Source: an uncultured delta proteobacterium (GTDB taxonomy: Bacteria; Myxococcota_A; Polyangia; Polyangiales; Houyiibacteriaceae). From it: a stretch of 64,000 nt of DNA. The notes beneath the pieces were generated by a model that saw only the letters and a list, made by a program, of their open reading frames with translations, had not been told where the DNA came from and made no database searches. Shown here piece by piece: positions 1,968-19,485 of this stretch. The translations under genes and the position numbers were made by a program. The DNA is taken from the NCBI GenBank assembly GCA_963746475.1, contig CAVVBB010000001.1, forward strand, positions 692,154-756,153, written 5' to 3'. Positions within the stretch are counted from its first letter, which is position 1; every line of letters begins with the position of its first letter.

Positions 1968-2930
1968 CTATGCGGTCGTATTCTGCGATGACGCAGTTCG
2001 TGCCCCGCCGATCGACAGACCTCCGGAAGTCGGCAGGTCCATCGACGTCCACAGCCGAGGTCCCTGCCTCATCCAACGAGATGCGAACTCGGCAACAGTC
2101 GGCGCTTGCACCGATTGCGTGCTCTGCAAGGCCTTCAGTCGTCTGGGTGCTTCAAACCAGCGCGTCTGCGGCCAAATGTGGTGCACGCGATGCAGGTTCC
2201 TATGGAGCATCAGCTGAGAGAAGAGCGACGGGACCCGTACGTCATGGGTGACGCTCCCTTGGTCCCTGGATGGCGTCGCTTCACGGATTTCGACTCCATA
2301 GTGCTCGGCCTGGCTGAACAGAAAATCGATCCAGGCGAATCCACAGAATGGGATGAGGTACGCCATCAGGAACGACTGCGGTGCCGTCACGGCAAAGGCC
2401 ATCACCGCAAAGAGCGTGAGGCCCAAGCCCAAACGCGCAAGCATCAAGCTCCCTCTCTTGGCGCTCGGTACGTAGCGAGCCGCGAGCCGATTGATGGACA
2501 TCGCGACCCAGACCTGTGCTGCCGGCGCGATGGGCCAGATCCAACGCGTGCTCGGGCTACCCGCGTACAACAGGCCCTCCGGGTCGGCCTCGTCGCAAGT
2601 ATGGCGGTGGTGTTCGAAATGAAAATACCGATAGGCGACCAAGTTGAAACCTATCAAACCCGCCGCGATCGTTCCGAGCAGCTCATTGGCCATCTTCGAC
2701 GACACGAAGTTTCGATGCACGCTCTGGTGCGTCAACTCGAGCATCCCTACGAAGAAGAAGCTCTGCACGACCACCAAGGGCAGCACGAGCAGCGATCCAG
2801 GGTAGGCGCTAATCACCACCGTATTGAGCGCGGCCAGTGTGACGTAGACGTAGCTAGGCCAGCTGGCCCTGGCAAAACGAGGCACGCGGAGCGCGCCCTT
2901 CGGCTCGGCCGATGTCAGGTGTTTGCTCAT
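1968..2930 (-). CDS. membrane fatty-acid desaturase family protein
   Basis: Three His boxes are present (HQSVHRN, HFEHHRH, HRVHHIW) together with hydrophobic segments. ATG at 2930 overlaps the upstream stop as ATGA (2927-2930). The track ORF start at 3005 is rejected in favour of this coupled start. Confidence 0.8.
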   Translation of the reverse strand: MSKHLTSAEPKGALRVPRFARASWPSYVYVTLAALNTVVISAYPGSLLVLPLVVVQSFFFVGMLELTHQSVHRNFVSSKMANELLGTIAAGLIGFNLVAYRYFHFEHHRHTCDEADPEGLLYAGSPSTRWIWPIAPAAQVWVAMSINRLAARYVPSAKRGSLMLARLGLGLTLFAVMAFAVTAPQSFLMAYLIPFCGFAWIDFLFSQAEHYGVEIREATPSRDQGSVTHDVRVPSLFSQLMLHRNLHRVHHIWPQTRWFEAPRRLKALQSTQSVQAPTVAEFASRWMRQGPRLWTSMDLPTSGGLSIGGARTASSQNTTA

Positions 2931-5900: not shown

Positions 5901-5998
5901 ATCTGCCCCTTGTCATTGGCAAAAGAGTAAACGGTCTTGGATGGGCTCTGCTCCGAGTAGTGCGAGAGCGCCGAAAAGAGAGTGTCGTGATGGGTCAT
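2927..5998 (-). CDS. fatty acyl-AMP ligase (FAAL) - acyl carrier domain - GNAT-like acyltransferase tridomain protein
   Basis: FAAL motifs are QYTSGSTSTPKGVVITHGNL, YGLAEHT, YLRTGDLGF and GRIKDMLILAGRNLYPQD. The carrier motif is GMGSLTAIEF, with the Ser codon near 4049-4051. The C-terminal ~240 aa look GNAT-like (VVGWYIMQP, LYLVAAGIAREHSKQAHRLMVLNAL). An alternative ATG lies at 6064. Confidence 0.85.
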   Translation of the reverse strand: MTHHDTLFSALSHYSEQSPSKTVYSFANDKGQIEQTLSWQELRLKVDALTGFLRSRCKLRVGDRVLLVYPPSLDFVLAFASCIRAGLIPVPVYPPNPLHADKGMAAFNKVAVDCDARLVVTNRAYARTRKLSVVQDFLSLKRSKWAIDLRWVTTDDVCAGDYAPVYGPEAAANDVALIQYTSGSTSTPKGVVITHGNLLHQIELSREGLGMNEHSRGVLWVPQYHDMGLIGGILNALGGNLELTLFSPLDFIKRPALWFELMHELRATHTAAPNFAYELALRKTSPEQRAQWDLSSLQVVMSAAEPVRASTSRRFLEAFAVAGLRPEAYLPAYGLAEHTVAVSFSGGTVCQIDKHELEVKRKVRVCDEAVRDSIELVSSGTWSQDVRLKIVDPETSTECEDDEVGEIWVDSPSKAAGYWKLDQDDVRSFSARLVGDEQHRYLRTGDLGFVRDGQLYICGRIKDMLILAGRNLYPQDVEDCVQLEDERLKPGGVACFSVEVESAEQVEEKLVLLAEVRNPRSSVAELRALAQKLQSAVLQSQQIACHAIVLAPVGSVLKTTSGKVRRQACRSRWLDGRLVDKALYVLQAKVAAPPQPQPQSISARRERSDGRGPLSQRETMMRDIAGQLLNLPNSEAVDVQVPLPHQGMGSLTAIEFCQEYEKQTQEELSIAQFFNKLSIRELSRSFAEGPQRQETLDEVRAQSPGGTIDELYALRRALLRERDCTSGFKLGSWAVRPARLEDVPVIHRLDQSEYGWLGEDATDDADFIRHQLEILNSGEIPWLWLLERTSARGDSEVVGWYIMQPTNKSPEEIRSWDDATDQGRLRSTFDPRGKQLYLVAAGIAREHSKQAHRLMVLNALSLMKETRMERVFACLAMPGFAEARASEDIRPEDYMRLELADGTPRDAFLAFFRELWVGTHRPFRLLRNGYPPDQHSGGHGVCACVDIGDHRRAIMSVFDKLTEQRFELFANASEPQDTVRPEPSCAPVRGTTAERTQVCANSLGHPALAARPTHNAHSLSARS

Positions 5999-6110
5999 CT
6001 GCCTAAGCCTTTCATTGTCCTTGATACGCAGGGCGGAACGCTTAGGTCGGTCACCCGCGTCCATACTCGAATGAATAGGACGACATCTGAGCGCGAGTCA
6101 GATGGACAGA

Positions 6111-6189: not shown

Positions 6190-7227
6190 CTACTTGGCGG
6201 AGGCGACCTGGAGCATGCGCGCGCCGCGCGCGTCCTCGGGCAGCAGGTCCTCGGCGCTGCACGTCGCCTGGTATCCGGCGACCGTGTCGTGCGCGATGTC
6301 AGCGAGGAAGCTCGCCACTTCTGCCTCCTTCGCCGAAGCGAGCTTTCCAGCGTAGCGCGCGGGCACGGGCAAGCCCTGGGAGCTCACGCCGTAGAGGGTC
6401 TCGTAGAACACGCATGCCGCGAGATAGCCGCCCTGCGGGGTAAGATGCAGGAAGTCGCTCTTCTGAAGTTGAATGGGCAGCTCCGAACGTTCGGCAGCGG
6501 CGCGCTCGGCAGCACGAAAGGCCGGGCCCACGGGCGCATTCAGTACCGGCGTGCCTGCCTTGTCGGCGGCCCGCCGGATGCACTCGAAGCGCGCGTTGAT
6601 TCTCGGCTGCGGCGCGACGTTGTTCGCGAGCGCCGGACCGACGTAGTTGACCCAGGTCGTCTTCGGCAGGGTTTCGCGAACTTGCCCGATGAAGGCGTAC
6701 TTGTTTGCCGTGTGTCGACGGGGCGAGTCGAAGCGCGAGGGCATCAGCTTGCCGAACCAGTGAAACAGGCTTGGATGCTCGAAGGAGTCCTGTCCGAGCA
6801 GATGCATGAAGCCCACCCCCACGACGTAGGTCCAGGGAACCTCGCCGTACTGCTTTAGCTTTTCGCGAGCCTGGCCGGGACCGTCGACCCAATAGCCGAG
6901 GTCGTGCGGCCCCTCGGCGAAGCCGAGCGAGCGACCTTCGGGAATCGTCGTGCGCCCGTCTGCGATGGCGAGCCGATGGATGTCGGCTACCAAAGCAGGG
7001 ATGTCGAGCGCGGGGTCCTGATTCGCCTGGTCCCCGGGCGCCTTGAGCAAACTGTGACCAAACCAGAGCACGTGGACGGCACCCTTCTGAAGAGGCCTTG
7101 GCTCAGGCCCCTCGGCTTCCGGCTCCTCTCGGTTCTGCCAGATCGAGTCGAGATCCAGGTCTTGGTTCGAGCCACAGGCCAGGGCGCCCGAAAGAAGCAT
7201 CAGCAAACCGCCCAAGCGCACTCGCAC
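6190..7227 (-). CDS. SGNH/GDSL-like hydrolase-fold lipoprotein (putative)
   Basis: GTG at 7227 lies 4 nt after the PKS stop. The signal is MRVRLGGLLMLLSGALAC with a lipobox-like ALAC. Block I-like VLWFGHSLL and block V-like DFLHLTPQGGYLAA are present. Confidence 0.5.
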   Translation of the reverse strand: MRVRLGGLLMLLSGALACGSNQDLDLDSIWQNREEPEAEGPEPRPLQKGAVHVLWFGHSLLKAPGDQANQDPALDIPALVADIHRLAIADGRTTIPEGRSLGFAEGPHDLGYWVDGPGQAREKLKQYGEVPWTYVVGVGFMHLLGQDSFEHPSLFHWFGKLMPSRFDSPRRHTANKYAFIGQVRETLPKTTWVNYVGPALANNVAPQPRINARFECIRRAADKAGTPVLNAPVGPAFRAAERAAAERSELPIQLQKSDFLHLTPQGGYLAACVFYETLYGVSSQGLPVPARYAGKLASAKEAEVASFLADIAHDTVAGYQATCSAEDLLPEDARGARMLQVASAK

Positions 7228-7231
7228 CGTG

Positions 7232-10200
7232 TCACTCCGCTGCTTCGCGCTGCGCCACGTCGAGCGCGCGAATGAGCTCCGTCGCCAAGTGGCGCGCGTA
7301 CGGCTCGCTGCACATGGTCTCGTGATCACCCAGCACGACCGTGACCGCGAGATCTGGAATCAGTTCCCCCCAGCCCAGGGCATCGTCGAATCGGAGGCGC
7401 GTTCCCATCTCGCGCTCCTCGTGACTGACACGAAAGAGGTGCGCAGGGCCGCCCTTGTAGGGCTTTGGCGCGTATCGACTTTCGGCCTGCAGCCAGGCCA
7501 CCCGCATGTTGTCGTTCCGGAACTGGTACGGGAAGGCTTTGGCCAGTGGCCGAACGATGGCGTCCTTCGCCGAGTCGATCACGTCGCCGGCGCCGTCGAC
7601 CACCTTGCCGAGCGCGTAGGAGGCGCCCCCTTCACGCAACCGAAGGGTATGCATCCGCAGGCGCTCGCGCCGATTTCGCTCTGGCATCACCGGACACAGA
7701 CTGTCCAGCATGAAGAGCAGGCCCACCTCTTCGCCTTGCTGCGTCAACTGCTGGGCCAGCTCGTAGGCTGCCGTTCCGCCACCGGAGAAGCCGCCGATGT
7801 AGTACGGACCCCGTGGCTGCACCTCACGCATGTCCCTAAGGTACTCGGCCGCCATCTCTTCGACGGACTCGTGCGGGGCCTCCCTGCCGTCAGTGCCGCG
7901 GTGCTGCAAGCCATAGAAAGGTTGCTCATCGCCGAGGTAATAGGCCAGGTGTCGCAGGTTCATCGGATTTCCGCCCATGCCCGCGGCACAGAAGATTGGC
8001 GGCAGCGACCCACTCGTTCGAATGGGGACGACCGTGCTCTTCGCCTTTTTTCGCACTTCCGCCTTTGGTTTGCCCGACCGCTCATCGGCCGCACCGAGCT
8101 CCTCCCGCAGCAATGCCGCGAGGGACTCCACCGTGGGGGCCTCGAACAGCACCGAGATGGCAAGCTCGACGCCGAACTCCCTGCGGACGAGATTGAAGAG
8201 ACGCACGGCGATCAAGGAGTGTCCACCGAGATCGAAGAAGCTGTCCTGCACGCCCACGCCATCGACACCCAGAAGGGAAGACCACATCTGCGCAATCGCC
8301 TCTTCCCAGCGATCTCGGGGAGCCAGGTACGGGCTCTTGAGCTCGGGGCGCTCCAGCGCCAGCGAAGCCTCGCTGCTCCGCACGCTAGCCTCGGTCTGCC
8401 GGGCCAGGCTCGGCAAGTCGATCGACGTGTAGATCGGCGTCGCCGAGACCTTGCGCGAGGAGATCACCGTTTCGAAGGCTTGCGCGCCTTCTTCAGGCGT
8501 GATCCCCAAAGAGAGCATGTTCTGAAACGCGCGCTGTGCCGGGGTCAGCAAAGCCGACGGCACCGACGCCCGCGACCCCTTCGTGGCGGCTGGGGTCGCA
8601 CTCACCGCCCGCCCCAGTTGCATCCCCGGCGTGAGGCGCCTGAGAGAGAACCCCTCGATGCTCGCGACCAGCTCTCCGTCTGTCGTCGTGATGCTGATGT
8701 CGAAGGTCGCGGTCTCGCCGCAAACCTCGTTGTCGCCGGCGTTTCGGACCCAGCTCAGGACCCTCGGAGGCAAACTGCGACTCACTTTGATGGAGCGATA
8801 CGTCATGGGCACCCAGAGCTCGGAGCCCTCGTATCCCTCGATCAGCCGCATCGCACAGCCGGTGGCCAGGTCGAGCAGAGCCGGATGCATGGAGAAGTCG
8901 CTCACTTCGCCCGCAAACTCGTCGCTCAGCGAAAGCTCCGCGAGCGCCTCTCCTTCTCCGTAGGCGACCCGGCGCAGCACAGCCCAGCGGGGCCCGAAGC
9001 GAATGTGTCGTTCCTGATCGGAAGGCAAAGCGCGGACCCCGTCCCCGAGCCGCGAGACTCGGCAACGGTCCTCGATGCTCCGGAGCGGAAGGTATTTGGT
9101 CTCGCGGCTGCGGCGTAAGAGCTTAACCTCGCCTTCTGCGTGTAGCTCCCAGTCTCGGGAGGCTCCGTCCAGCTCCGAAGTGCTCTGCACCTCGACGCTG
9201 TAGGCACCGCTGCCGTCCTGCTGCAGCACGACGCGGAACATTCGCTCCTCGTCGTCGTCCAGATCGAGCGGGCTGAGAAAGGAAAGGTTCTGAATGCGTA
9301 TCGGCGTGTCTGGGACCAGCTCTTCCATCGCTGCGGTCACGAGCTGGACGAAGCCCGTGCCGGGCACGAGCGCACGACCGTCGGCCCGGCGGTGCCCATC
9401 GAGCAGCCAGTGCCGACGCGGGCTCAAGGTTCCGAGGAAGCGGGTTTGTCCGTCTTCGGTCTCCTCGCAGGCGGTGAACAACGGAAACTTCGTCGTGGGG
9501 CCAGGAAAGACCTTGCTTCGCTTCGCGCCGCGCATCTCTGCGGCCGCGCTGGCGGCCATGCCGACCTCTGCCCAGACGCCCCAGTTGAGGGCGGTGAACG
9601 GGCGTCCTTCGGCACGCCTCAGTTTCGCGTGCGCATTGAGATAGGCATTGGCGGCCACGTAGTCGACCTGGCCGGCCGGCCCGATCGCCGTGCTGGTCGA
9701 AGAGCAGGTGACGAAGAAGTCCAGTCGTCGATCGGCGAAGAGCGTGTCGAGGACCCGAGTCCCATGAACCTTGGGCGCGAGGACGGCCCCGATCTCGTCG
9801 ACGGTCTTCGTTTCTGCCAGTCCGTCACGCAGGAGGCCCGCAGCATGGACGACTCCGTCGACCCGACCGAAGGCGCCTTCGATGGTCTGGAGCACGGTCC
9901 GCATGGCCTCGAGGTCACTGACGTCGGCCGGTGTGAGCAATACCTCCGCGCCCAGCTCTTCGAGCTCCTGGACGCGACGAATCATCAGGCTGACGGAGTC
10001 ATTGGGGCCATGAAGACGTAGCCAGGTCTCACGCTGCGATCGCTTCGGAAGGCTCGTTCGGCCGACGAGCGCCAGCCGACAGCCGCGACTGGCCATGCGA
10101 CGCGCCAAGGCGAAGCCAATGCCGCCGAGCCCGCCGGTGATGAGATAGACTCCGCCCTCCTTGATGGAAGCCCCATCTCCGTCGATGAGCGGGGCCGAGC

Positions 10201-13200
10201 CATAGGTTTGCTCGAAACAGAGCTCGCCGCGCAGGGCGAGCGCACAAGTTCGTGGCCTCGAGAGGAGCTCCGTGAGGAGCGCTGCGGGCTCGGGCGGCGA
10301 AGCGACCCGCGACCTCGACAGCAAACCACGACGGGGCGCTTTGACCGGGACGGGCATGTCGATGCTGCGTATCTGCAGTCCCTCATACTCTTTTGGAAGG
10401 ACGCGCAGCGGGCCGAGGAGGGTTGCCTTGTTGGGGCAGGCGAGCTTCTCATCGCCCGCGGCCTGCATGCCGGAGCTGACCACATCCATGGCGACGCCCT
10501 CGAGCATCCCCGCCTTCGACAGCTCGGCAACGAGGTAGAGGACGCTGTAAAAGCCCCTCTCCAAGTGAAACTGGAACAAGTTGCCGTTTTGAAGGTCGTC
10601 GGGCTCGTCCGAGTAAAGCCAGGCGTGCACGACGCGATCAGGCCGCAGCTCGGCCTTGGCCAGAGCTGCCACGAGCCGCTCGTAGCCATCGGCGCCGCGC
10701 TCCGGATCGAGCATGAAGCTGTGCACAGTGACTGGCGCAAACGCGTTGCCCGGTCGAACTGTGACGACTCGCTTGCCCCGAGCCTTCAGGCGGTCGACCA
10801 AGGCATCCGTGCAACCGAGCGAGTCCGCGAACACGAGCCAGCATTCGGACTGCTCGTCGGCAAGCTCGGGCCGCTCTCTGAGCTTCCAGGCGTCCTCGTA
10901 GAATCGCTCCGCGGGATTTTCGATCCTGTGCAGTCCCTCGGAGCTGCCATGGCCCGTGACCTGGCCCGGCTCGATGAAGTAGCGCTGACGCTGAAACGCG
11001 TAGGTCGGGAGCGGAAGCCGACGCCGCCTTCCGGGGGCTCGGAACTGTGACCAGTCGATCTCGAAGCCCGCGCACCAGAGCTGACCCGCCACCCGTAGCA
11101 GGTAGGCCCTGTCGTCGATCTTCTCCTTCGGGTGCCGCAAAGAGCCAGTCACGAGCGCAGCGTTGGCAGCCTTGCAACTCTGCTTGGCGAGCGAGCTGAG
11201 TGTCGTCCCGGGGCCGACCTCGAGCAGCAGTCTGCCCGGCTCCTCGAGCAGCCTATCCATGCACTGCGAAAAGCACACGGTGCTCCGAAGGTGCTGAACC
11301 CAGTACTCCGGGTCCGTCGCCTCCTCCGCCGTGAGCCAGTCACCGCTGCGGTTCGAAAGCACGGGGATCTCTGGTGGGCGCAGAGTCAGCCCTGATAGCT
11401 GGGCGCGGAACTCCTCGAGGATCCCGTCGAGCATGTTGGAATGTGCCGCCACGTCGATGCGGATGCGGCTGAAGTCCACATCGTCGGCCTGCAGTCGCTC
11501 GACGAGGGCGGCGATCGCAGCCTCGGGACCCGACACCGTGAAGAGCTCCGGCCCGTTCTTGCAGGCCAGACTCAGGGAATCGGCCAGGTACGGTCGAAGC
11601 TGCTCTTCCGGGAGCGCCACGCTGAGCATCCCGCCCCGTTCTGTCTTCTCGAACAAGCGGCCGCGAAGAGACACGAGCCCCAAGCAGTCCTCGTAGCTCA
11701 TGACACCGGCCACGCAGGCCGCCGTGTTCTCGCCCATGCTGTGCCCGAGTAAGGCCCTGGGCTCGACCCCCCGTCGACGCCAGAGCGCGGCGAGCGCGTA
11801 CTCGAGGATGAAGATGGCCGGGAGCTGCAGCGAGGGTCGAAGGAGCTCGGTAGCGGCAGCCTCTTTGCGTGACTCGTCCGCGAACAAGAGGGGCGCGAGC
11901 TCGAGCCCCTGCTCCTCGCGGAGCCAGCTCAGGCCCCGGTCGACGTCCTTGCGGAACTCCGCGTCCGCTTCGTAGAGGTCACGCGCCATGCCGACATACT
12001 GCGCGCCGCCCCCGGGAAACAAGAAGGCCACGGACGGGCGCTGAGCGCTCGCTTTGCCCTCGGTCCAGCGCAAAGAGTCCCGGCTCGACAGAAGCTCGAC
12101 GGCATCCGCCTGGTTCGAGACCACGGCTACCGCACGGTGCCCAAAAGCCCTGCGTCCGACGTCCAAGGTGTAGGCAACGTCGGCGACTTCGAGCGCGGGC
12201 TCCTCGGTCAGGTGCGCGGCCAGTCGGCTCGCGTTGCCTGCCAGGGCTTCTGCGTTTCGTCCGGAAAGCAGCAGCGCGTGAAAGGCCTCCTCGCTCGGCG
12301 CCGAAGTCGGGACCTCGGGAGCCTCCTCCAGCACGACGTGCGCGTTCGTACCCCCGACGCCGAGAGAGTTCACGCTCGCGCGCAGCGGCTCTTCGGAAGT
12401 CCAGTCACGCAGTCGGTCGTTGATGAAGAACGGCGACTGATCGATGTCGAGCGCCGGGTTCGGCGCCTCGAGGTGCAGAGTGGGTGGCAGCTGCCGGTGC
12501 TGAAGAGCCTTGCAAACCTTGATGAAGCTCGCCACGCCCGCCGCAGTGTCGAGGTGTCCGATGTTCGTCTTCACCGAACCAATGCCGCAGTAACCTAGCC
12601 GATCCGTCGAAGTCGAGAAGGCCTGTGTCAGAGCCGCGAGCTCGATGGGATCGCCCGTGGCTGTGCCGGTGCCGTGGGCTTCTACGTAGCTGATGGCGTC
12701 CGCATCGATGCCCGCCACCTCGAGCGCCTCGGCCACCGCCGCCGCCTGCCCGTCGACACTGGGAGCCAAGTAGCCCACCTTGCCGGAGCCGTCGTTGTTC
12801 ACCGCAGAGCCGCGGAGCACGGCAATGACGTGATCGCCGTCGTCCAGGGCATCCTGAAGGCGGCGGAGCACGACCATGCCCGCACCACTGCCGAACACGG
12901 TGCCCTGGGCGTGCTGGTCGAAGGCGCGACAGCGACCGTCCGGGGACAGAATCTCGCCCTCGGCGTAGAGATAGCCCTGTCGGTGCGGCAGCTCGAGAGT
13001 CACGCCGCCTGCCAAGGCCATGTCGCACTCGAGCGCCAGCAAGCTCGAGGCCGCCTCGTGAATCGCGACGAGCGACGTCGAGCAAGCCGTCTGGATGTTG
13101 AGGCTCGGCCCCTTCAGGTCGAGACAGTACGAAATCCGGGTCGCGAGAAAGTCTTTGTCGTTGCCGGTGTGGCGAAGCAGAAAGTGTCCGACGGAATCGA

Positions 13201-13630
13201 CGAGTTCCGGATTGCTCAGAAGGTTCTGGATGAAATAGGAGTTCATCCCGCAACCGGCGTACACCCCGATCGAGCCATCGAAAGAATCGGGGGGATGCCC
13301 TGCGCTCTCGAGCGCCTCCCAGGCGCACTCGAGCAAGGTCCTGTGCTGCGGGTCCATGATCGCGGCGTCCTGCGGACCGAAGCCGAAGAACTCTGCGTCA
13401 AAATAGTCCATCTTGTCGATGGGGGCGCCGCGCTTCACGTAGTTGGGGCGCTCGAGATCGGCCCTTCGAACGCCGGCGGCGAGCAGCTCCGCGTCGGTGT
13501 AGGTTCGGATCGACTCGACACCGTCCCGCAGATTCTCCCAGTACTGCTTGGGCGTATCGGCCCCGGGGAAGCGGCAGGCCATGCCCACCACCGCAATCAA
13601 GTCACCAGTCTCTTCGTGCATGCTCGACAT
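7232..13630 (-). CDS. type I polyketide synthase, KS-AT-KR-DH-carrier-TE
   Basis: KS motifs are DTACSTSLVAIH, EAHGTGT and KTNIGHL. The AT has GHSMGE. The KR has TGGLGGIG and YVAANAY. The DH has HRRADGRALVP and HPALLD. The carrier has FFDLGGHSL. The TE has GFSGG and GDH. ATG at 13630 lies 6 nt after the NRPS stop. Confidence 0.95.
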   Translation of the reverse strand: MSSMHEETGDLIAVVGMACRFPGADTPKQYWENLRDGVESIRTYTDAELLAAGVRRADLERPNYVKRGAPIDKMDYFDAEFFGFGPQDAAIMDPQHRTLLECAWEALESAGHPPDSFDGSIGVYAGCGMNSYFIQNLLSNPELVDSVGHFLLRHTGNDKDFLATRISYCLDLKGPSLNIQTACSTSLVAIHEAASSLLALECDMALAGGVTLELPHRQGYLYAEGEILSPDGRCRAFDQHAQGTVFGSGAGMVVLRRLQDALDDGDHVIAVLRGSAVNNDGSGKVGYLAPSVDGQAAAVAEALEVAGIDADAISYVEAHGTGTATGDPIELAALTQAFSTSTDRLGYCGIGSVKTNIGHLDTAAGVASFIKVCKALQHRQLPPTLHLEAPNPALDIDQSPFFINDRLRDWTSEEPLRASVNSLGVGGTNAHVVLEEAPEVPTSAPSEEAFHALLLSGRNAEALAGNASRLAAHLTEEPALEVADVAYTLDVGRRAFGHRAVAVVSNQADAVELLSSRDSLRWTEGKASAQRPSVAFLFPGGGAQYVGMARDLYEADAEFRKDVDRGLSWLREEQGLELAPLLFADESRKEAAATELLRPSLQLPAIFILEYALAALWRRRGVEPRALLGHSMGENTAACVAGVMSYEDCLGLVSLRGRLFEKTERGGMLSVALPEEQLRPYLADSLSLACKNGPELFTVSGPEAAIAALVERLQADDVDFSRIRIDVAAHSNMLDGILEEFRAQLSGLTLRPPEIPVLSNRSGDWLTAEEATDPEYWVQHLRSTVCFSQCMDRLLEEPGRLLLEVGPGTTLSSLAKQSCKAANAALVTGSLRHPKEKIDDRAYLLRVAGQLWCAGFEIDWSQFRAPGRRRRLPLPTYAFQRQRYFIEPGQVTGHGSSEGLHRIENPAERFYEDAWKLRERPELADEQSECWLVFADSLGCTDALVDRLKARGKRVVTVRPGNAFAPVTVHSFMLDPERGADGYERLVAALAKAELRPDRVVHAWLYSDEPDDLQNGNLFQFHLERGFYSVLYLVAELSKAGMLEGVAMDVVSSGMQAAGDEKLACPNKATLLGPLRVLPKEYEGLQIRSIDMPVPVKAPRRGLLSRSRVASPPEPAALLTELLSRPRTCALALRGELCFEQTYGSAPLIDGDGASIKEGGVYLITGGLGGIGFALARRMASRGCRLALVGRTSLPKRSQRETWLRLHGPNDSVSLMIRRVQELEELGAEVLLTPADVSDLEAMRTVLQTIEGAFGRVDGVVHAAGLLRDGLAETKTVDEIGAVLAPKVHGTRVLDTLFADRRLDFFVTCSSTSTAIGPAGQVDYVAANAYLNAHAKLRRAEGRPFTALNWGVWAEVGMAASAAAEMRGAKRSKVFPGPTTKFPLFTACEETEDGQTRFLGTLSPRRHWLLDGHRRADGRALVPGTGFVQLVTAAMEELVPDTPIRIQNLSFLSPLDLDDDEERMFRVVLQQDGSGAYSVEVQSTSELDGASRDWELHAEGEVKLLRRSRETKYLPLRSIEDRCRVSRLGDGVRALPSDQERHIRFGPRWAVLRRVAYGEGEALAELSLSDEFAGEVSDFSMHPALLDLATGCAMRLIEGYEGSELWVPMTYRSIKVSRSLPPRVLSWVRNAGDNEVCGETATFDISITTTDGELVASIEGFSLRRLTPGMQLGRAVSATPAATKGSRASVPSALLTPAQRAFQNMLSLGITPEEGAQAFETVISSRKVSATPIYTSIDLPSLARQTEASVRSSEASLALERPELKSPYLAPRDRWEEAIAQMWSSLLGVDGVGVQDSFFDLGGHSLIAVRLFNLVRREFGVELAISVLFEAPTVESLAALLREELGAADERSGKPKAEVRKKAKSTVVPIRTSGSLPPIFCAAGMGGNPMNLRHLAYYLGDEQPFYGLQHRGTDGREAPHESVEEMAAEYLRDMREVQPRGPYYIGGFSGGGTAAYELAQQLTQQGEEVGLLFMLDSLCPVMPERNRRERLRMHTLRLREGGASYALGKVVDGAGDVIDSAKDAIVRPLAKAFPYQFRNDNMRVAWLQAESRYAPKPYKGGPAHLFRVSHEEREMGTRLRFDDALGWGELIPDLAVTVVLGDHETMCSEPYARHLATELIRALDVAQREAAE

Positions 13631-13636
13631 GATTCC

Positions 13637-16600
13637 TCAGGCTGACTTCTTCTTGCGGCGACCCAGCGCGTGACGGCGGCGCGCGCCTCGACTCACCGCC
13701 TTCTCCATCACCTCGCCGGCGTCGTCGCCGGACAAGGCCTCGGCCAGGGAGCCGATGGTCGGAAAGCGATAGAGGTCGGTCAGCTTCACCGGCTGCTCGA
13801 GCTGCTCCCGCAGAGCCCGATGCGCCTGCACCATCAGGAGGGAGTGACCGCCGAGGTCGAAAAAGTTTTCGTCGCGCCCAATGCCCGTGAGCTGCAGGGT
13901 CCGCTCCCAGATCGCGGCAATCGTCCGCTCGAGCTCGTTTGACGGTGCCACCGTGGCGGCTGCCGCTCGGCGGTCCTTGCGCAGGCCTTCCGGCGACGGC
14001 AGCGCCTTGCGGTCGATCTTTCCGTTCGGAGTGAGTGGGAAGGCCGGTAAACTCGCGAACACCGAAGGTAGCATGAACTCGGGGAGCTCTTTGCGAAGCG
14101 CGGCGCGAAGCGCGTCCTCGTCGATGCTGCTGTCTTCGGGGACCAGGTACGCGACCAGACGCGGATCTCCGCCCGGGTCGGGCTGGGCGACGACGACGCA
14201 CTCTCGAACCGTCGGGTGCTGGGACAGCTTGGCCTCGATTTCACCGAGCTCGATGCGATAGCCGCGAATCTTGACCTGAAAGTCCATCCGCCCGAGGAAA
14301 TCCACGCTGCCGTCCGACGCAAAGCGGGCGAGGTCTCCGGTTCGGTAGAAGCGCGAACGTTCTTCACCGGCGCTCGGCAAAGAGACGAAGCGCTCGGCGG
14401 TGAGCTCGGGCCGCTGGTGGTACCCGCGGACGACCCCCTCTCCGCCGATCAGCAGCTCACCGGGCAGGCCGGGAGGAACAGGTTCGAGGAAGCGGTCCAC
14501 GATGCAGAGCTGCGTGTTCGAAATGGGCCTGCCCACGGAGATGCTCTGTGGCTTTCCCGAGACCCGCTGAGTCGAGGACCAAATCGTGGTCTCGGTCGGC
14601 CCGTACATGTTCGTCACGGTGCCGCCTACGATGTCGTCGAGGGCATGGGCCAAGGCGACGGGAAAGGCTTCGCCGCCGATCATGATGTGATCGATTCGTC
14701 CGAGCGCCGCACGCATGTCGTCGTGCAGCGTCATCATCTTGGCCATCGACGGCGTGCACTGAAAGTGGCTGACGCCGTGCTTCGCGATGAGAGCCGCGAG
14801 ACCGAAGTCCTCCTGCTGCGGCTGCTCAGAACCGTGCGTTCGATTCGCCTCTTGCATGACCTGGGCCAGGCCCGGAAGCCCGCGCCGCACGTCCTCGACG
14901 GACATGCCGAAGTCGACCAGACAGGCAATCTCGTCGACGCCGGCGGCGCGTACCCGGTCCACCATCTGCACGCAGTTCTGCGGAGTCCCAAAGAGTCCGC
15001 TGGTCTCGTAGTAGCGCTCGAAGGCGTGATCCAAGAGCGCGTCCATTTCCTCTTCGCTCAGGTGGTCGAGGCTGATGTCGTCGCGCTCGTCCGTCCCTTT
15101 AGGGCGCTTGAAGGCTGGGAAGGACCAGGCGAACCCCTTGATGAGCGAAATGGAGCTCGAAAGGTAGTCCTTCATCGGCTGCCGCACCCGCTCGCGCACC
15201 TCCTCGTCGCTCTCGCCGACGCAGGAGTGGAGCATCAACGTGACCTTGCCCGTGGCCGGATCGAAGCCCGCCTTCCGCCGAGCTTCCCTGTACGCACGAA
15301 TCTTTTCGGCCATCTCCTCGAGGCTCTGTCCGAGCAGATGGGTCAGCAGATTGGCACCCGCCCTACCCGCCATCTCGTAGGTCTCGACGTTGCCCGCACT
15401 GGTCACCCAGACGGGGAGCTCCGGCTGAACTGGACGCGGCAGCACGCTGGTCTCGACCATGTCGCCGAAGGGGTTCTCGAAGGAGACCGATTCACCACGC
15501 CAGAGCTTGCGCACGGTCTCGATGGCCTCAAACATCTGGCGCTTGGCATCCTTGAAGCCTTGCGGACGGATGACGAAGTCGTTGGGCTGCCAGCCCGAGG
15601 CGAAAGCGAGACCGACACGCCCTCGCGAGAGGTTGTCGACCACGGACCACTCTTCGGCCACGCGAATGGGCGGGTGCAGCGGAAGCACGCAGCTGCCGGC
15701 GCGGATCTCCACCTGCTTGGTCACGGCCGCGAGGGCGGCCCCTGTGACGGAGGGGTTCGGAAACGGCCCGCCAAAGGCGTGGAAGTGCCGCTCCGGCGTC
15801 GAGACGAACTTGAAGCCGCGCTCGTCGGCGAACTTGGCGCTCTCGAGCATGAGGTCGTACTTGCCCTGCGCCGAGGAGTCGTCGTTGCCCCAGAGGAAGA
15901 TACCGAAGTCCATCGGCTTTGCAGGGCCGGCCGCCCGCGTGAAGCCCTGCGTGTCGTCCTGTTTCCGGTCGACATAGAGGACGACCTTGAAACCGCGGCA
16001 CAGCGTCCAGTGCAGCTCCAGCACGGAAATGTCGAAGGACAGACTCGTCACCGCGAGCCAGGTACCGGGTGGGTCGTGCGCAATGCACTCGTCCATCCCC
16101 GCAAAGAAGTTCACGACGTTGCGGTGTTCGACCATCACGCCCTTGGGTTTCCCCGTGGAGCCCGAGGTGTAGATGACGTACGCGAGATTGCGGGGGGCGG
16201 GTCCATCGCTGGGCGGCTCGCTCGGAAACTCTGCGATACGGGGCCACTCGGAATCCACGGCGACGGTGCGCGCTGCGGACTCGGGGATTTGGGGCGCGAG
16301 GGCCTTCTGAGTGAGAACGATGGGGACCTGGCTGTCCTCGATCATGAAAGCGATGCGATCGCGCGGATAGCTGGGGTCGAGCGGCACATACGCGCCGCCG
16401 GCCTTCATCACGCCCAGCACGGAGACGATCATGTCGAGCGAGCGCTCGACGAAGATGCCGACCATGACGTCGGGGCCGACGCCCTCGTTCTTCAAATAGT
16501 GTGCGAGCTGGTTCGCGCGCTGGCTGAGCTCCAGATAAGTGTAGCTCTGTCCTTCGCAAACCAGCGCATCGGCCTCGGGCGACTTGGCGACCTGGGCGTC

Positions 16601-18373
16601 GAACTGCTGGCAGATCGTGCTCTGCGCGGGCAGCTCCTTGCCGGTGGCGTTCCACTCGCGCGCGATGCGAATTCGCTCTTCCTCGGTCAGCAGCGAGACC
16701 CGCCGAAAGGCTTCCCCGGGCGCACGCGCGATCGCTTCGAACCAGCTTGCGAGCTGTGCCAACATCCTGTCTGCATCCGGAGCGGCTAGTGCCCGCTCGT
16801 CGTACTCGACGAGCAGCTCGCTCCCATTTGCGTCGGTCACGAAGGACAATAGCGTGCCGGCTGGAGCTGCGAAGTCCTCACGCTCGTCCACGCGAGCCAG
16901 CAGCACGGGCGAAAGCCCCTGCTCGAGGAGCGCGCTGGACGAGCGCAAAGCGCGGTAGCGCTGGACCATGTCCTTCAGAAAAGGACCGCGCTTCCGGTAG
17001 CGGCTCAAACTCGTCAAGAGAGACGCGCTGGCGTCCCGGGCACTTTGCTCCGCATCCTCGCCGAGGGCGATCCGCCAGGGAACCTCCCTGCTGAACAGTT
17101 CTTGGGCCCCGTCGGCCTCGGACAGAAGTTCCGCGTCCACGAGGCTGAGGTCGAACTGCGCTTGCGGGCTGATGCGCGCCAGGTACAGCGCGACCGCAGC
17201 CAGAACGGCGTCGGCCCGGCGCGTGGCGTCACCGCCGGCAAGGGTGTCCATGTTCGGCAACGACAGCGTTCGGCGGCCGCGCCTGGGCGAGCCCTCGGCG
17301 ATGCGTTCCGGCCGTAAGTAAGGAAGCTCCACGCCGTCGAGGCGCGTCAGCTCTCGCAGCCAGCGCGGCTCGGCGCGGGCGATTCGCTCGGCGCGGGCGG
17401 CGTCGAAACTCTGGTCGACGCCGGTCAGCACTTCGCCCACGGCTACCCCTAGGTAGAGCAGCGCTTCCTGCGGACTGAGTGACCTCCCCGAGAGCGAGCG
17501 AAGTCCGCTCAGCAGCAGCGCGCCAGAGCGCATCGCGACCCGAATACCATTGTCATCGAACGCCAGGCAGGTGCCGGCCGATGCGCCCTCGGCGGCGTCG
17601 ACGAGCTCGGCCCGAGCGACGGTGACGGCACGACCCCGATGGGCAAGCTTGGCCGCCCCGAACGGGTTGTCGTAGTGCCCAAAGTCGAGCGCGCGAACGA
17701 GCCGTTCGCCCTGCTCGGCGGAGTGCTTGAAGTCGAGCGCGCACAAACTGTCGGGACGTTGGTAGCGAGCAAAGTAGCTGCGCCGACTCAGGTCCTGCGG
17801 GCTCCGCGACTGCCGGCCCGAATCGAGCTGCTCGGTGAGCTCGGCGAAGGCCTCGATGGCGGCGGCGAAGTTCTTCGTGTTAAGGGTGACGGAGGTCTCT
17901 GCGGGATCGAGTGCGAAGTCATGCCGCAGCAAGACGTCGCCCTCGTCGATACCGCCAGCCATGTCGTGGAAACTGATTCCGTATTGGCTGAGACCGTTGA
18001 TCAGGGCCCAGACCGGAGTGTACATCCCGGCGTAGTCGGGCAGAGGGCCATCGTGGAAGTTGATGGCCTGCCGACTTGCGCTCGCGAGCATTCTCTCGGG
18101 CACGATCGAGAGATTGGCGATACTGAAGAGATACTCGGGCGCCAGCTCGGGGACTCCCTCCGCCGCCTCATCCCCTGGCGCGAGCACACTCAGTTGCTCG
18201 GCTCTCGCCCAAGCCACGACGGCCTCGGCCGCGCTGACCACCGCGAGCACGTGGTGCCCCCGCTCCCGCCAAATCTGAGCGCACTGCACCAGCAGCGACT
18301 CCTGACCGACGAAAACGGCGCCAAGCGATGGACCGACGGGAGCGCCACCGGTTGAGTTGGGCCTTTCCACCAT
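13637..18373 (-). CDS. NRPS: formyltransferase-like domain - partial condensation domain - Gly-type A domain interrupted by a luciferase-like monooxygenase - PCP
   Basis: The Fmt-like motif is INFHDGPLPDYAG...GIDEGD. A-domain motifs are LAYVIYTSGSTGKPKG, SFDISVLE, NMYGPTETT, YRTGDLA, QVKIRGYRIELGEIE and NGKIDRK. The LLM insert begins MDFGIFLWGNDD. The PCP motif is FFDLGGHSL. Confidence 0.95.
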   Translation of the reverse strand: MVERPNSTGGAPVGPSLGAVFVGQESLLVQCAQIWRERGHHVLAVVSAAEAVVAWARAEQLSVLAPGDEAAEGVPELAPEYLFSIANLSIVPERMLASASRQAINFHDGPLPDYAGMYTPVWALINGLSQYGISFHDMAGGIDEGDVLLRHDFALDPAETSVTLNTKNFAAAIEAFAELTEQLDSGRQSRSPQDLSRRSYFARYQRPDSLCALDFKHSAEQGERLVRALDFGHYDNPFGAAKLAHRGRAVTVARAELVDAAEGASAGTCLAFDDNGIRVAMRSGALLLSGLRSLSGRSLSPQEALLYLGVAVGEVLTGVDQSFDAARAERIARAEPRWLRELTRLDGVELPYLRPERIAEGSPRRGRRTLSLPNMDTLAGGDATRRADAVLAAVALYLARISPQAQFDLSLVDAELLSEADGAQELFSREVPWRIALGEDAEQSARDASASLLTSLSRYRKRGPFLKDMVQRYRALRSSSALLEQGLSPVLLARVDEREDFAAPAGTLLSFVTDANGSELLVEYDERALAAPDADRMLAQLASWFEAIARAPGEAFRRVSLLTEEERIRIAREWNATGKELPAQSTICQQFDAQVAKSPEADALVCEGQSYTYLELSQRANQLAHYLKNEGVGPDVMVGIFVERSLDMIVSVLGVMKAGGAYVPLDPSYPRDRIAFMIEDSQVPIVLTQKALAPQIPESAARTVAVDSEWPRIAEFPSEPPSDGPAPRNLAYVIYTSGSTGKPKGVMVEHRNVVNFFAGMDECIAHDPPGTWLAVTSLSFDISVLELHWTLCRGFKVVLYVDRKQDDTQGFTRAAGPAKPMDFGIFLWGNDDSSAQGKYDLMLESAKFADERGFKFVSTPERHFHAFGGPFPNPSVTGAALAAVTKQVEIRAGSCVLPLHPPIRVAEEWSVVDNLSRGRVGLAFASGWQPNDFVIRPQGFKDAKRQMFEAIETVRKLWRGESVSFENPFGDMVETSVLPRPVQPELPVWVTSAGNVETYEMAGRAGANLLTHLLGQSLEEMAEKIRAYREARRKAGFDPATGKVTLMLHSCVGESDEEVRERVRQPMKDYLSSSISLIKGFAWSFPAFKRPKGTDERDDISLDHLSEEEMDALLDHAFERYYETSGLFGTPQNCVQMVDRVRAAGVDEIACLVDFGMSVEDVRRGLPGLAQVMQEANRTHGSEQPQQEDFGLAALIAKHGVSHFQCTPSMAKMMTLHDDMRAALGRIDHIMIGGEAFPVALAHALDDIVGGTVTNMYGPTETTIWSSTQRVSGKPQSISVGRPISNTQLCIVDRFLEPVPPGLPGELLIGGEGVVRGYHQRPELTAERFVSLPSAGEERSRFYRTGDLARFASDGSVDFLGRMDFQVKIRGYRIELGEIEAKLSQHPTVRECVVVAQPDPGGDPRLVAYLVPEDSSIDEDALRAALRKELPEFMLPSVFASLPAFPLTPNGKIDRKALPSPEGLRKDRRAAAATVAPSNELERTIAAIWERTLQLTGIGRDENFFDLGGHSLLMVQAHRALREQLEQPVKLTDLYRFPTIGSLAEALSGDDAGEVMEKAVSRGARRRHALGRRKKKSA
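14819..15916 (-). other. luciferase-like monooxygenase (MOx) domain inserted between A-domain motifs A4 and A5
   Basis: This covers aa ~820-1185 of the NRPS. It sits after SFDISVLE (A4) and before NMYGPTE (A5). The sequence is MDFGIFLWGNDDSSAQGKYDLMLESAKFADERGFKFVSTPERHFHAFGG... Confidence 0.8.
17504..18325 (-). other. methionyl-tRNA formyltransferase-like N+C domains at the NRPS N-terminus
   Basis: This covers aa ~17-290. N105-x-H107 lies in INFHDGPLP and D143 lies in GIDEGD, 36 residues after the His, which is the same spacing as E. coli Fmt N108/H110/D146. Confidence 0.75.
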
Positions 18374-18410
18374 AGATCCCCCGAAGAAGAGGAGAAATTT
18401 CTCTCTTACA

Positions 18411-19091
18411 TTTCAGGCTGCCAACCGCAAGCAACACAGGCCGGCGAATTCCCGTGTTCGGTGACCCAAACCGCCAGGCCCCCACTCGTAGGTCAGCGTC
18501 CGGAGCTGTGCGCCTAGAAGCCACGACGCAGACGAACACGAAGCCGGTCGCCGCGTCCGCCAAGGCGGCCCCTAGACAGGTATGCGCGCCAACACCGTAG
18601 GGGTTGAACGCGCCCTGCTCCGGCTGGACCGCCCCTTCGCCCAGAAACCGGCCGGGATCGAAGCGCTCCGGTTCCTCGAAGTACTCCCGCATGAGACTCT
18701 GAGCTCCGGTCGACACGAAGAGCTGGTCGCCCTCCTCGATTTGGGAGCCGGCATACACGAAGGGCGTCGTCGCTTGGCGTACGAACCCAGAAAGGGCCGG
18801 GTAGCGGCGACTCGACTCCAGCTTCACGGCCGTCGCCAAGGGCAACTGAGCCATCCATTTTCGCCCGAGCGGCTCGGACGCGCTGGCGGCCTCTGCTTCT
18901 GCACGCCGCTCCGCGACCAGCCCTGGACGTCGATAGAGCGCGGCCAGCGCAAAGCTGAGCGCCGCCGCCACCGTATCCAGCCCCGCAAAGTACCGCGTGA
19001 TGGCCAGCAGCGGTACGTCTCGCTCGGTCAGCAACTCGTCGCGCACGCAGCGCCCAAGCGCCGCGAACAGGCCTTCATCCGAATCGAGGTC
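18411..19091 (-). pseudogene. cytochrome P450 remnant (C-terminal ~225 aa only)
   Basis: It retains the I-helix AGLDTVAA, the ExxR motif ESSRRYP, the PERF-like EEPERFDPGRF and the heme loop FNPYGVGAHTCLG. The N-terminal ~225 aa of a normal P450 are absent, and only ~390 nt remain before the next gene. The frame runs on without a stop into the NRPS start. Confidence 0.6.
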
Positions 19092-19485
19092 GCTGGCTAC
19101 GCCAATCGACCTCGACTTCGACGTTTCCGTTGATGAACTTGAACTGCCAGCAGGTCCGAAACATGTCGAAGTTGATGAGGTGACGGTTGGTGTTGAGTGA
19201 GCCCGAGGCCCAGCCGACAGTTCCGTTGTAGCCAAGCCCCGCCAGGGTCCGTCCATCGGCACGCTCCAGTTTCCACGTCGTGTTCAACGAGCCCTGGTTG
19301 GGAGTTTGGCCAAGCACGGCTTCGACGCACAGACGGTAGAGGCTGGCCAACACCTATGGGTGACAGGGCAGCTCTCGAAATAGCGGCTCATCGGCTTTCT
19401 GCGGCGTCGCACGACCCCAATCCTCATCGCATAGCGCCAGGGGAGAACCGCGGGGCCTAGGTGTAGCGCCATTGGGGACCTGGGC

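What the first reader, a model, noticed from the sequence alone, without database searches (positions are those of the whole stretch)
13637..18373. NRPS starter-like module: intact formyltransferase triad, condensation domain reduced to its C-lobe, and a Gly-code A domain split by a luciferase-like monooxygenase
Numbering runs from the Met at 18373. Residues 17-295 are Fmt-like N and C domains. N105/H107 lie in INFHDGPLP and D143 in GIDEGD, with the His-to-Asp spacing of 36 residues seen in E. coli Fmt. Residues 300-575 resemble only the C-terminal half of a C domain, and no HHxxxDG motif occurs anywhere in the protein. Residues 585-1460 form an A domain that is interrupted after A4 (SFDISVLE) and before A5 (NMYGPTE) by a ~365-aa LLM domain (820-1185). 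Residues 1478-1545 form the PCP (FFDLGGHSL). Hand alignment to GrsA-PheA landmarks gives the specificity code D781 I782 L785 Q1205 M1231 G1233 M1256 I1264 W1265 K1452, or DILQMGMIWK. This matches the canonical Gly code DILQLGLIWK at 8 of 10 positions, and the two differences are both L to M. A Gly A domain carrying a MOx domain between A4 and A5 is known from the terminal modules MtaG and MelG (myxothiazol and melithiazol). There it oxidises the glycine alpha-carbon to leave a terminal amide. In this window the same device sits in an N-terminal, formyltransferase-headed module with no working C domain, directly upstream of a PKS. That context is different and, to my knowledge, uncharacterised.
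Basis: partly seen in the sequence, partly recalled or inferred. Interest (0 to 1): 0.78.

Follow-up and report, generated by a model that had tools for sequence, protein, structure and literature searches.

The report
Formyl-glycine-oxidising NRPS loader of a widespread orphan NRPS-PKS

Summary
The ORF at 13637..18373 (minus strand, 1578 aa) reads as described. It has an Fmt-like formyltransferase whose N105/H107/D143 align without gaps to E. coli Fmt N108/H110/D146. A 290-aa region follows that is homologous, in sequence profile and in predicted fold, only to the C-terminal lobe of condensation domains; there is no HHxxxD motif. The A domain (code DILQMGMIWK) is split by a MupA/Atu3671-type luciferase-like monooxygenase (LLM), and a PCP ends the protein.

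It is not a one-off. At least 592 of the first 600 matched stretches in species-representative genomes encode the same head. The full-length protein (44-55% identity) is usually followed by a full-length homologue of the window's KS-AT-KR-DH-ACP-TE PKS. The family includes the "roseobacter-conserved PKS/NRPS cluster", reported as product-unknown in 2015-2016 papers and listed only as an NRPS-T1PKS hybrid in a 2024 one. In alphaproteobacterial plasmids the pair sits inside polysaccharide loci.

Most likely chemistry, all inferred: glycyl-S-PCP is N-formylated, then hydroxylated at the alpha-carbon. One malonyl unit is added, reduced and dehydrated, and the TE releases a C4 product. Whether the formyl hemiaminal survives or collapses to a glyoxylyl starter is open. 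This combines the OzmO/CongA and MtaG devices, so I rate it a new variant of a known kind.

The parts
13637..18373 (-). NRPS loading-module gene (1578 aa): F - C-lobe - A(N-part) - LLM - A(C-part) - PCP
17474..18325 (-). Formyltransferase domain, residues 17-300 (Fmt N-terminal catalytic subdomain plus Fmt C-terminal subdomain). Catalytic N105/H107/D143.
   Evidence: Pfam PF00551/PF02911. 1fmt alignment. Foldseek matches to Fmt/ArnA with TM 0.8 normalised to the target. Triad invariant in 51 homologues.
16619..17473 (-). Condensation-domain C-terminal lobe plus C-A linker, residues 301-585. No N-lobe and no HHxxxDG.
   Evidence: Profile against PDB. AF2 plus Foldseek. No Pfam hit. Motif search.
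15929..16618 (-). A domain N-terminal part, residues 586-815 (through SLSFDISVLE, with D781 I782 L785)
14819..15928 (-). Luciferase-like FMN monooxygenase inserted in the A domain, residues 816-1185 (TIGR04020, MupA/Atu3671 family)
   Evidence: E 3e-146; best PDB match is the PuwE monooxygenase domain 6KET, E 3e-112.
13979..14818 (-). A domain C-terminal part, residues 1186-1465 (Q1205, M1231, G1233, M1256, I1264, W1265, K1452)
13730..13942 (-). PCP, residues 1478-1548. Ser1511 lies in GGHSL.
   Evidence: Ser invariant in 51 homologues.
7232..13630 (-). Partner type I PKS (2132 aa), KS-AT-KR-DH-ACP-TE. Its start codon lies 6 nt after the NRPS stop.
   Evidence: Pfam. Sequence. Catalytic residues conserved in 28 homologues. 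Co-occurs with the NRPS in the loci.

Best explanation
The ORF is the loading module of a two-gene NRPS-PKS assembly line.

Steps, with their basis:
1. The A domain activates glycine and loads it on the PCP. This is inferred from the specificity code.
2. The N-terminal Fmt-like domain transfers a formyl group from N10-formyl-THF to the glycyl amine. This is inferred from the intact triad and from LgrA/OzmO/CongA precedent.
3. The LLM embedded in the A domain uses reduced FMN and O2 to hydroxylate the glycine alpha-carbon. This is inferred from MtaG/MelG and PuwE precedent. The product is N-formyl-alpha-hydroxyglycyl-S-PCP.
4. The C-lobe remnant does no condensation. It probably serves as the scaffold and linker that holds the F domain on the A domain.
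5. The downstream KS takes the starter. The AT adds one malonyl unit, KR and DH turn it into a 2-enoyl thioester, and the TE releases a C4 product. Candidates are 4-formamido-4-hydroxybut-2-enoate or its 5-membered lactone or lactam.

In many genomes adjacent glycosyltransferase and polysaccharide genes suggest the product is then glycosylated or attached to a glycan. Only the domain identities, active-site residues and gene linkage are shown; every chemical step is inference.
For: - Domain map and TIGR04020 hit.
- Triad equals Fmt N108/H110/D146 and is invariant in 51 homologues.
- Code is D I L Q [M/L/C/F/Y] G M(50 of 51; 1 V) I/V W K across the family.
- PCP Ser is invariant.
- The closest solved relative of the LLM is the PuwE domain, assigned by bioinformatics, together with the adjacent aminotransferase, to making a carrier-bound 3-amino-2-hydroxy acyl chain (PMC4219810).
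- The MtaG/MelG MOx sits in Gly A domains and is reported to hydroxylate Calpha (PMC11342130, PMC11411415).
- F-A(Gly)-PCP loaders feeding a KS are known (PMC4504003, PMC5764310).
- The PKS carries KS Cys/His/His, AT GHSxGE, KR Tyr, DH His and Asp, ACP Ser and TE Ser, all conserved in 28 homologues.
- NRPS and PKS are adjacent, full-length and co-directional in most untruncated loci from at least 10 phyla.
Against: - No step has been shown biochemically for any family member, and no product is known.
- The order of formylation and hydroxylation is assumed.
- The fate of the hemiaminal is unknown.
- About eight loci have the NRPS without an adjacent PKS, so the PKS step may not be universal.
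- The folate-binding motif differs from Fmt (HDGPLPxYAG against HGSLLPRWRG).
- The window lacks the glycosyltransferase and PPTase neighbours seen elsewhere.
- The AT motif (VAAH) and the domain order (DH after KR) are atypical, so extender choice and stereochemistry are uncertain.
Confidence: 0.55

Rival explanations
1. Self-immolative starter. As in MtaG, the N-formyl-alpha-hydroxyglycyl thioester collapses, releasing formamide and leaving glyoxylyl-S-PCP. Glyoxylyl is then the true PKS starter. After one extension with KR and DH the product would be 4-oxobut-2-enoate, or its cyclic form 5-hydroxyfuran-2(5H)-one. The formyl group would be only a transient activating or protecting group.
For: This is the reported fate of acyl-alpha-hydroxyglycyl-S-T in MtaG/MelG and crz-like pathways (PMC11342130, PMC11411415). 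The A(LLM) unit here is 51% identical to a C-domain-headed A(LLM) module in P0140, so the cassette is shared with MtaG-like architectures.
Against: It spends a formyl-THF on a group that is thrown away. N-acyl-alpha-hydroxyglycines are fairly stable at neutral pH (my own knowledge). The invariant triad across the family is compatible with either fate, so nothing here discriminates.
Confidence: 0.25
2. The Fmt-like domain does not formylate the PCP-bound glycine. It could be a structural cap replacing the lost N-lobe, a formyl-THF hydrolase, or a transferase acting on another acceptor such as an amino sugar of the neighbouring polysaccharide pathway. In that case the LLM would act on free-amine glycyl-S-PCP.
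For: The best sequence matches in the PDB are sugar N-formyltransferases (WbkC, E 2e-17) ahead of Fmt, and LgrA scores only E about 0.4. The pair is embedded in polysaccharide loci. The folate-site motif is altered.
Against: N/H/D are invariant across 51 homologues from many phyla. The same head precedes many different A domains in larger NRPSs, which fits a general N-capping starter unit. F domains of OzmO/CongA type are accepted as formylating glycyl-S-PCP (PMC4504003).
Confidence: 0.1
3. OzmO/CongA-like oxazole route. Formylglycyl is extended by malonate and cyclodehydrated to a 5-substituted oxazole, and the LLM does an unrelated oxidation.
For: Same starter logic: F-A(Gly)-PCP followed by a KS (PMC4504003, PMC5764310).
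Against: The window encodes no OzmP/CongE/PtxD-type ATP-pyrophosphatase (SGGKDS motif). Among the 80 loci only one, probably incidental, SGGKDS match was found, in L034. No such gene recurs among neighbours.
Confidence: 0.03

Closest known systems
MtaG / MelG (myxothiazol, melithiazol) terminal modules, C-A(MOx)-PCP-TE
   Same: A glycine-type A domain interrupted after the FDxS motif and before NxYGPTE by a TIGR04020-type luciferase-like monooxygenase. Expected Calpha hydroxylation of thioester-bound glycine (PMC11342130, PMC11411415).
   Different: Here the module is N-terminal. It is headed by a formyltransferase plus only the C-lobe of a C domain, has no TE of its own, and hands on to a KS.
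OzmO / CongA / PtxE (oxazolomycin, conglobatin, phthoxazolin) F-A(Gly)-PCP loading modules
   Same: A formyltransferase-headed, glycine-specific loading module that passes formylglycyl to a PKS (PMC4504003, PMC5764310). PtxE is 1154 aa. This matches the ~1170-1215-aa LLM-less relatives of the window protein, so it probably contains the same ~590-aa F plus C-lobe head. That last point is inference.
   Different: Those modules have no LLM in the A domain and are paired with an OzmP/CongE cyclodehydratase, which is absent here. They feed long PKS lines rather than a single KS-AT-KR-DH-ACP-TE.
LgrA initiation module (linear gramicidin), F-A-PCP
   Same: The only biochemically and structurally characterised NRPS F domain I am aware of. 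It formylates the aminoacyl-S-PCP (PMC4504003, citing Schoenafinger 2006).
   Different: The LgrA F domain is about 190 aa, with the A domain starting near residue 195. It lacks the Fmt C-terminal subdomain and the C-lobe. Its sequence similarity to the window F domain is marginal (E about 0.4).
Roseobacter-conserved PKS/NRPS cluster (PKS, glycosyltransferase, NRPS, PPTase)
   Same: Full-length homologues of both window proteins at 44-46% identity in Roseovarius atlanticus and a Roseobacter MAG (L053, L073), and the same gene set in Parasedimentitalea and Paracoccus plasmids. Stated as product-unknown in 2015-2016 papers (PMC4337385, PMC5014874); a 2024 paper lists it only as an NRPS-T1PKS hybrid (PMC11595833).
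   Different: Gene order differs: PKS-GT2-NRPS-PPTase there, NRPS-PKS here. The window has no GT2 or PPTase neighbour.
PuwE monooxygenase domain (puwainaphycin), PDB 6KET
   Same: The closest solved relative of the LLM (E 3e-112). It is assigned, by bioinformatics and together with the adjacent aminotransferase, to making a carrier-bound 3-amino-2-hydroxy acyl chain (PMC4219810).
   Different: It lies between a PKS and an NRPS module, not inside an A domain, and its substrate is a beta-amino fatty acyl chain.

Membership tests
NRPS formylating initiation module (F-A-PCP) | N-terminal Fmt-fold domain with catalytic Asn/His/Asp | tested here: met
   Invariant in 51 homologues.
NRPS formylating initiation module (F-A-PCP) | F domain joined directly to the A domain, as in LgrA | tested here: not met
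   A 290-aa C-lobe lies between F and A. In LgrA the A domain starts near residue 195.
NRPS formylating initiation module (F-A-PCP) | Formyl transfer from formyl-THF to aminoacyl-S-PCP | not testable with these tools
   Needs an enzyme assay.
OzmO/CongA-type oxazole-forming loader | Glycine-specific A domain | tested here: met
   Code DILQMGMIWK. The canonical Gly code is from my own knowledge.
OzmO/CongA-type oxazole-forming loader | Adjacent OzmP/CongE ATP-pyrophosphatase (SGGKDS motif) | tested here: not met
   none in the window; one, probably incidental, match among the 80 loci (L034).
MtaG/MelG-type MOx-interrupted Gly A domain | TIGR04020 LLM inserted between A4 and A5 of a Gly A domain | tested here: met
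MtaG/MelG-type MOx-interrupted Gly A domain | Terminal module with a working C domain upstream and its own TE | tested here: not met
   No N-lobe or HHxxxDG. The protein ends at the PCP. The TE is on the PKS.
MtaG/MelG-type MOx-interrupted Gly A domain | Calpha hydroxylation followed by N-Calpha cleavage | not testable with these tools
   Needs a biochemical assay.
Condensation domain (PF00668) | N-lobe with the HHxxxDG catalytic motif | tested here: not met
   Profile matches start at about residue 176 of 434-aa C domains.
Condensation domain (PF00668) | C-lobe fold plus C-A linker | tested here: met
Roseobacter-conserved PKS/NRPS cluster | Homologous NRPS and PKS over their full lengths | tested here: met
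   (L053, L073)..
Roseobacter-conserved PKS/NRPS cluster | Glycosyltransferase and PPTase in the cluster | tested here: not met
   tblastn of those neighbours against the whole window found nothing.

The most novel reading that the evidence does not exclude
The conserved NRPS-PKS pair makes a small reactive C4 unit, either an N-formyl hemiaminal enoate or an aldehyde-enoate. This unit is installed on, or primes, an exopolysaccharide or glycolipid. That would be a thiotemplated route to a non-carbohydrate glycan substituent shared by bacteria of at least ten phyla. The F plus C-lobe head would be a previously unrecognised chimeric starter domain.
Probability: 0.2. Interest if true: 0.8.

Novelty: new variant of a known kind. 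Interest (0 to 1): 0.6.

Why it matters
The window copy adds little on its own, but the family is large. The representative protein library holds 1246 clusters at 50% identity that match the head at E<=1e-30. The family spans Myxococcota, Planctomycetota, Chloroflexota, Actinomycetota, Gemmatimonadota, Acidobacteriota, Verrucomicrobiota and Proteobacteria.

It includes a cluster that roseobacter genomics papers have flagged as product-unknown since 2007. A concrete biochemical hypothesis (formyl-glycine, alpha-hydroxylation, one ketide extension) makes that open question directly testable with a two-gene expression construct.

PGAP labels the whole NRPS as a 'MupA/Atu3671 family luciferase-like monooxygenase'. 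That label hides these synthetases from text-based mining.

Tried and rejected
- Pfam on residues 296-591 at E<=10 found nothing. The C-lobe assignment needed a family profile and a fold search.
- An exact-sequence look-up of the NRPS, and of the 100%-identical E2 protein P0178, found no contig. The organism is placed only as Myxococcota/Polyangiales-like, from relatives of the E2 protein at about 70% identity.
- Ten literature searches found no paper on a formyltransferase plus MOx glycine loader, and none naming the roseobacter cluster's product. Gammanonin and the Acetobacteraceae survey proved unrelated. Moran 2007 is not held.
- The oxazole route was rejected because no OzmP/CongE-type gene is present.
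- The window's FAAL-ACP protein, its 379-aa neighbour, the desaturase-like gene and the P450 were tested as cluster members. None is conserved beside the pair in 80 loci. The FAAL C-terminal region and the 379-aa protein have no Pfam, NCBIfam or PDB sequence match.
- MAFFT with the LLM left in misplaced code positions 278 and 331. I redid the alignment with the LLM excised.
Full report
**1.

The minus-strand ORF 13637..18373 encodes 1578 residues. Pfam finds Formyl_trans_N (68-170), Formyl_trans_C (211-303), AMP-binding in two stretches (591-805 and a later one), Bac_luciferase (821-1148), AMP-binding_C (1378-1452) and PP-binding (1484-1547). NCBIfam places the insert in TIGR04020, the MupA/Atu3671 family of FMN-dependent luciferase-like monooxygenases (LLM), residues 823-1172, E 3e-146.

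The phmmer alignment to E. coli Fmt (1fmt) runs ungapped from query 69 to 172. N105, H107 and D143 therefore fall on Fmt N108, H110 and D146, with the same 36-residue His-Asp spacing. An AF2 model of residues 1-591 is confident (pLDDT 92.6, pTM 0.87). Its best PDB fold matches are Fmt and the ArnA formyltransferase domain, with TM about 0.8 normalised to the target.

**2. The C-lobe**

I built a profile of this region from 51 homologues (A3). It matches condensation domains in the PDB, but only their second half:
- 7c1k residues 176-434 of 434, E 2e-13;
- EntF residues 211-457;
- TycC residues 268-520;
- the LgrA C domain, residues 1021-1224.

The strongest stretch is the C-A linker. An AF2 model of this region alone (pLDDT 89.6) returns C-domain-containing entries for all fifty best Foldseek hits. 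TM is 0.53-0.66 normalised to the query and about 0.4 normalised to isolated C domains, which means about half a C domain. No HHxxxD or xHxxxDG string occurs anywhere in the protein. The N-lobe is gone. The F domain and the C-lobe are predicted to pack as one rigid unit (pTM 0.87).

**3. The A-domain code**

I verified my remembered GrsA sequence against 1amu_A; residues 1-535 are identical apart from residue 2. I then aligned it to the window A domain with the LLM excised. Positions 235, 236, 239, 278, 299, 301, 322, 330 and 517 read D781, I782, L785, Q1205, M1231, G1233, M1256, I1264 and K1452. MAFFT opens a gap at position 331, so W1265 rests only on its adjacency in TETTIW.

That it is two Leu-to-Met changes from the canonical Gly code is from my own knowledge. 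The LLM sits between SLSFDISVLE and the HFQCTPS...NMYGPTE part of the A domain. This is the same insertion site as in a C-domain-headed A(LLM) module of protein P0140, which is 51% identical to window residues 482-1421.

**4. It is not a one-off**

Of the 600 matched stretches, 592 were confirmed as relatives of residues 1-591.
- In the 80 loci kept, tblastn shows the whole protein conserved (query residues about 16-1555, 44-55% identity). In most loci that are not cut short, a full-length homologue of the window's PKS follows on the same strand (residues 12-2128, 42-49% identity).
- The record titles span Myxococcota, Planctomycetota, Chloroflexota, Actinomycetota, Acidobacteriota, Gemmatimonadota, Verrucomicrobiota, Spirochaetota, and Alpha-, Beta- and Gammaproteobacteria. 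Cultured strains are among them, for example Caldimonas manganoxidans ATCC BAA-369 and Roseovarius atlanticus.
- An exhaustive HMMER search of 1.84 billion representative proteins finds 1246 clusters at 50% identity matching the head at E<=1e-30.
- Their lengths fall into two groups. One is about 1550-1590 aa (with the LLM). The other is about 1170-1215 aa (the ones I read have no LLM and mostly other A-domain signatures). There are also multimodular synthetases of up to 5966 aa. The F plus C-lobe head is therefore a general starter unit, and the glycine/LLM form is one large branch of it.
- Across 51 full-length members, the Fmt triad, eight of the ten code positions and the PCP serine are invariant.

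**5. The partner PKS**

ORF 7232..13630 starts 6 nt after the NRPS stop. It reads KS-AT-KR-DH-ACP-TE. The following are all present in the window and conserved in 28 full-length homologues:
- KS Cys183, His319 and His359;
- AT GHSMGE, with a FabD-like VAAH motif;
- the KR nucleotide motif, Tyr1324 and Asp1269;
- DH His1413...Pro1423 and Asp1587;
- ACP Ser1805 and TE Ser1949.

This is a working single extension module that should add one malonyl unit, reduce it, dehydrate it and release the product.

**6. Context elsewhere**

No other gene of the window is conserved beside the pair. Recurrent neighbours in the loci are a GT2 orthologue (9 loci from six phyla), GT4, Alg13/Alg14-like proteins, a WcaJ-type sugar transferase, a Wzx flippase, UDP-glucose epimerase, a Wza-like exporter and a PPTase.

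In annotated plasmids of Parasedimentitalea marina, Aminobacter niigataensis and Paracoccus sp., the pair lies inside Wzx/Wzy-type polysaccharide loci. The order is PKS-GT2-NRPS in the two Rhodobacterales, with an unnamed or distant PPTase. In Aminobacter the PKS is divergent and the order is NRPS-PPTase-GT. PGAP names the NRPS after its LLM domain.

The PKS-GT-NRPS-PPTase gene set is the 'conserved roseobacter PKS/NRPS cluster'. It was found in 28 of 57 genomes, and its product was unidentified in 2015 and 2016 (PMC4337385, PMC5014874). A 2024 paper still lists it only as an 'NRPS-T1PKS hybrid' (PMC11595833). None of my ten full-text searches found a characterised product.

**7. Mechanism (all inferred)**

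Precedents:
- F domains act on the aminoacyl-S-PCP in LgrA. They are accepted as making formylglycyl-S-PCP in the OzmO, CongA and PtxE loaders, which hand on to a KS (PMC4504003, PMC5764310).
- The MOx of MtaG/MelG and of crz-like pathways hydroxylates the Calpha of thioester-bound glycine (PMC11342130, PMC11411415).
- The closest solved relative of the window's LLM is the PuwE domain (6KET, E 3e-112). It is assigned by bioinformatics, together with the adjacent aminotransferase, to making a carrier-bound 3-amino-2-hydroxy acyl chain (PMC4219810).

The most economical reading is this sequence: glycyl-S-PCP, then N-formylglycyl-S-PCP, then N-formyl-alpha-hydroxyglycyl-S-PCP. One malonyl extension with KR and DH follows, and the TE releases a C4 enoate, lactone or lactam.

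The main rival is that the hemiaminal collapses as in MtaG. That would give formamide and a glyoxylyl starter, and finally 4-oxobut-2-enoate. Nothing in the sequence decides between these two. An oxazole route is unlikely: the window encodes no OzmP/CongE-type protein with the SGGKDS motif, and among the 80 loci there is only one, probably incidental, match. The glycan context suggests the product is glycosylated or becomes a glycan substituent. That remains a lead, not a finding, and the window itself lacks that context.

**8. Verdict**

The combination of an OzmO-like formylating glycine loader with an MtaG-like MOx insertion is uncharacterised.
- I rate it a new variant of a known kind, with interest 0.6. 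The interest lies mainly in the family's breadth and in how testable the hypothesis is.

Noticed in passing
window 18168..19262 (-): A cytochrome P450 fragment. Only profile positions 257-428 of PF00067 are matched, although the I-helix AGLDT, ExxR and the heme loop FNPYGVGAHTCLG are all present. There is no room upstream for the N-terminal half. The ORF reads about 200 nt into the NRPS start, so it looks like a decayed gene. One other locus (L020) has an intact but unrelated P450 upstream of its NRPS.
   Followed up: partly
window 2927..6064 (-): A fatty acyl-AMP ligase plus carrier domain (FAAL-ACP) with a ~340-aa C-terminal region. That region has no Pfam, NCBIfam or PDB sequence match. By eye it begins like a GNAT (WAVRPARLEDVPVIHRLD), which is unverified. 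It is co-directional with the PKS and downstream of it, but is not conserved beside the pair in other genomes.
   Followed up: partly
window 6190..7329 (-): A 379-aa ORF directly after the PKS with no family or PDB match. By eye it has a lipoprotein signal (LLSGALAC) and GHSL / DFLHL strings reminiscent of SGNH hydrolases, which is unverified. The likely start is near 7200.
   Followed up: partly
window 1968..3005 (-) and 1307..1951 (-): A fatty-acid-desaturase-family protein (PF00487; weak similarity to carotene hydroxylase/ketolase and GntB models) and a small ORF with a weak RimI-like acetyltransferase hit. They continue the same strand after the FAAL gene.
   Followed up: no
window 7232..13630 (-): Atypical PKS features conserved in the family: the DH lies after the KR (KS-AT-KR-DH-ACP-TE), the DH motif has one extra residue (HxxxxGxxxxP), and the AT has a FabD-like VAAH motif instead of HAFH/YASH.
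   Followed up: partly
L051 10001-13582; L029 10001-12925; P0071; P0102, P0112, P0127; P0140: Sister architectures of the same head. LLM-less F-(C-lobe)-A-PCP forms exist, and P0071 keeps the Gly signature. P0102 and P0127 carry the LLM plus an extra methyltransferase-like insert before the PCP; P0112 instead carries a C-like extension after the PCP. P0140 is a multimodular protein whose second module is C-A(LLM), as in MtaG.
   Followed up: partly
L081 15016-19626; L083 18016-22650; L084 17980-22572: RefSeq/PGAP names these ~1540-aa NRPSs 'MupA/Atu3671 family FMN-dependent luciferase-like monooxygenase', after one embedded domain. That name hides them from searches by product name.
   Followed up: yes
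window 30874..32655 (-): A wax-ester synthase/DGAT fused to a C-terminal SCP2 sterol-carrier domain.
   Followed up: no
window 58175..59440 (-): A 2-oxoacid dehydrogenase E2 that is 100% identical to a database protein from a 2.1-Mb contig (P0178), with an 89% relative also present. Named relatives at about 70% identity are Polyangiales/Myxococcota MAGs. Neither this protein nor the NRPS could be located by the exact-sequence contig look-up.
   Followed up: partly
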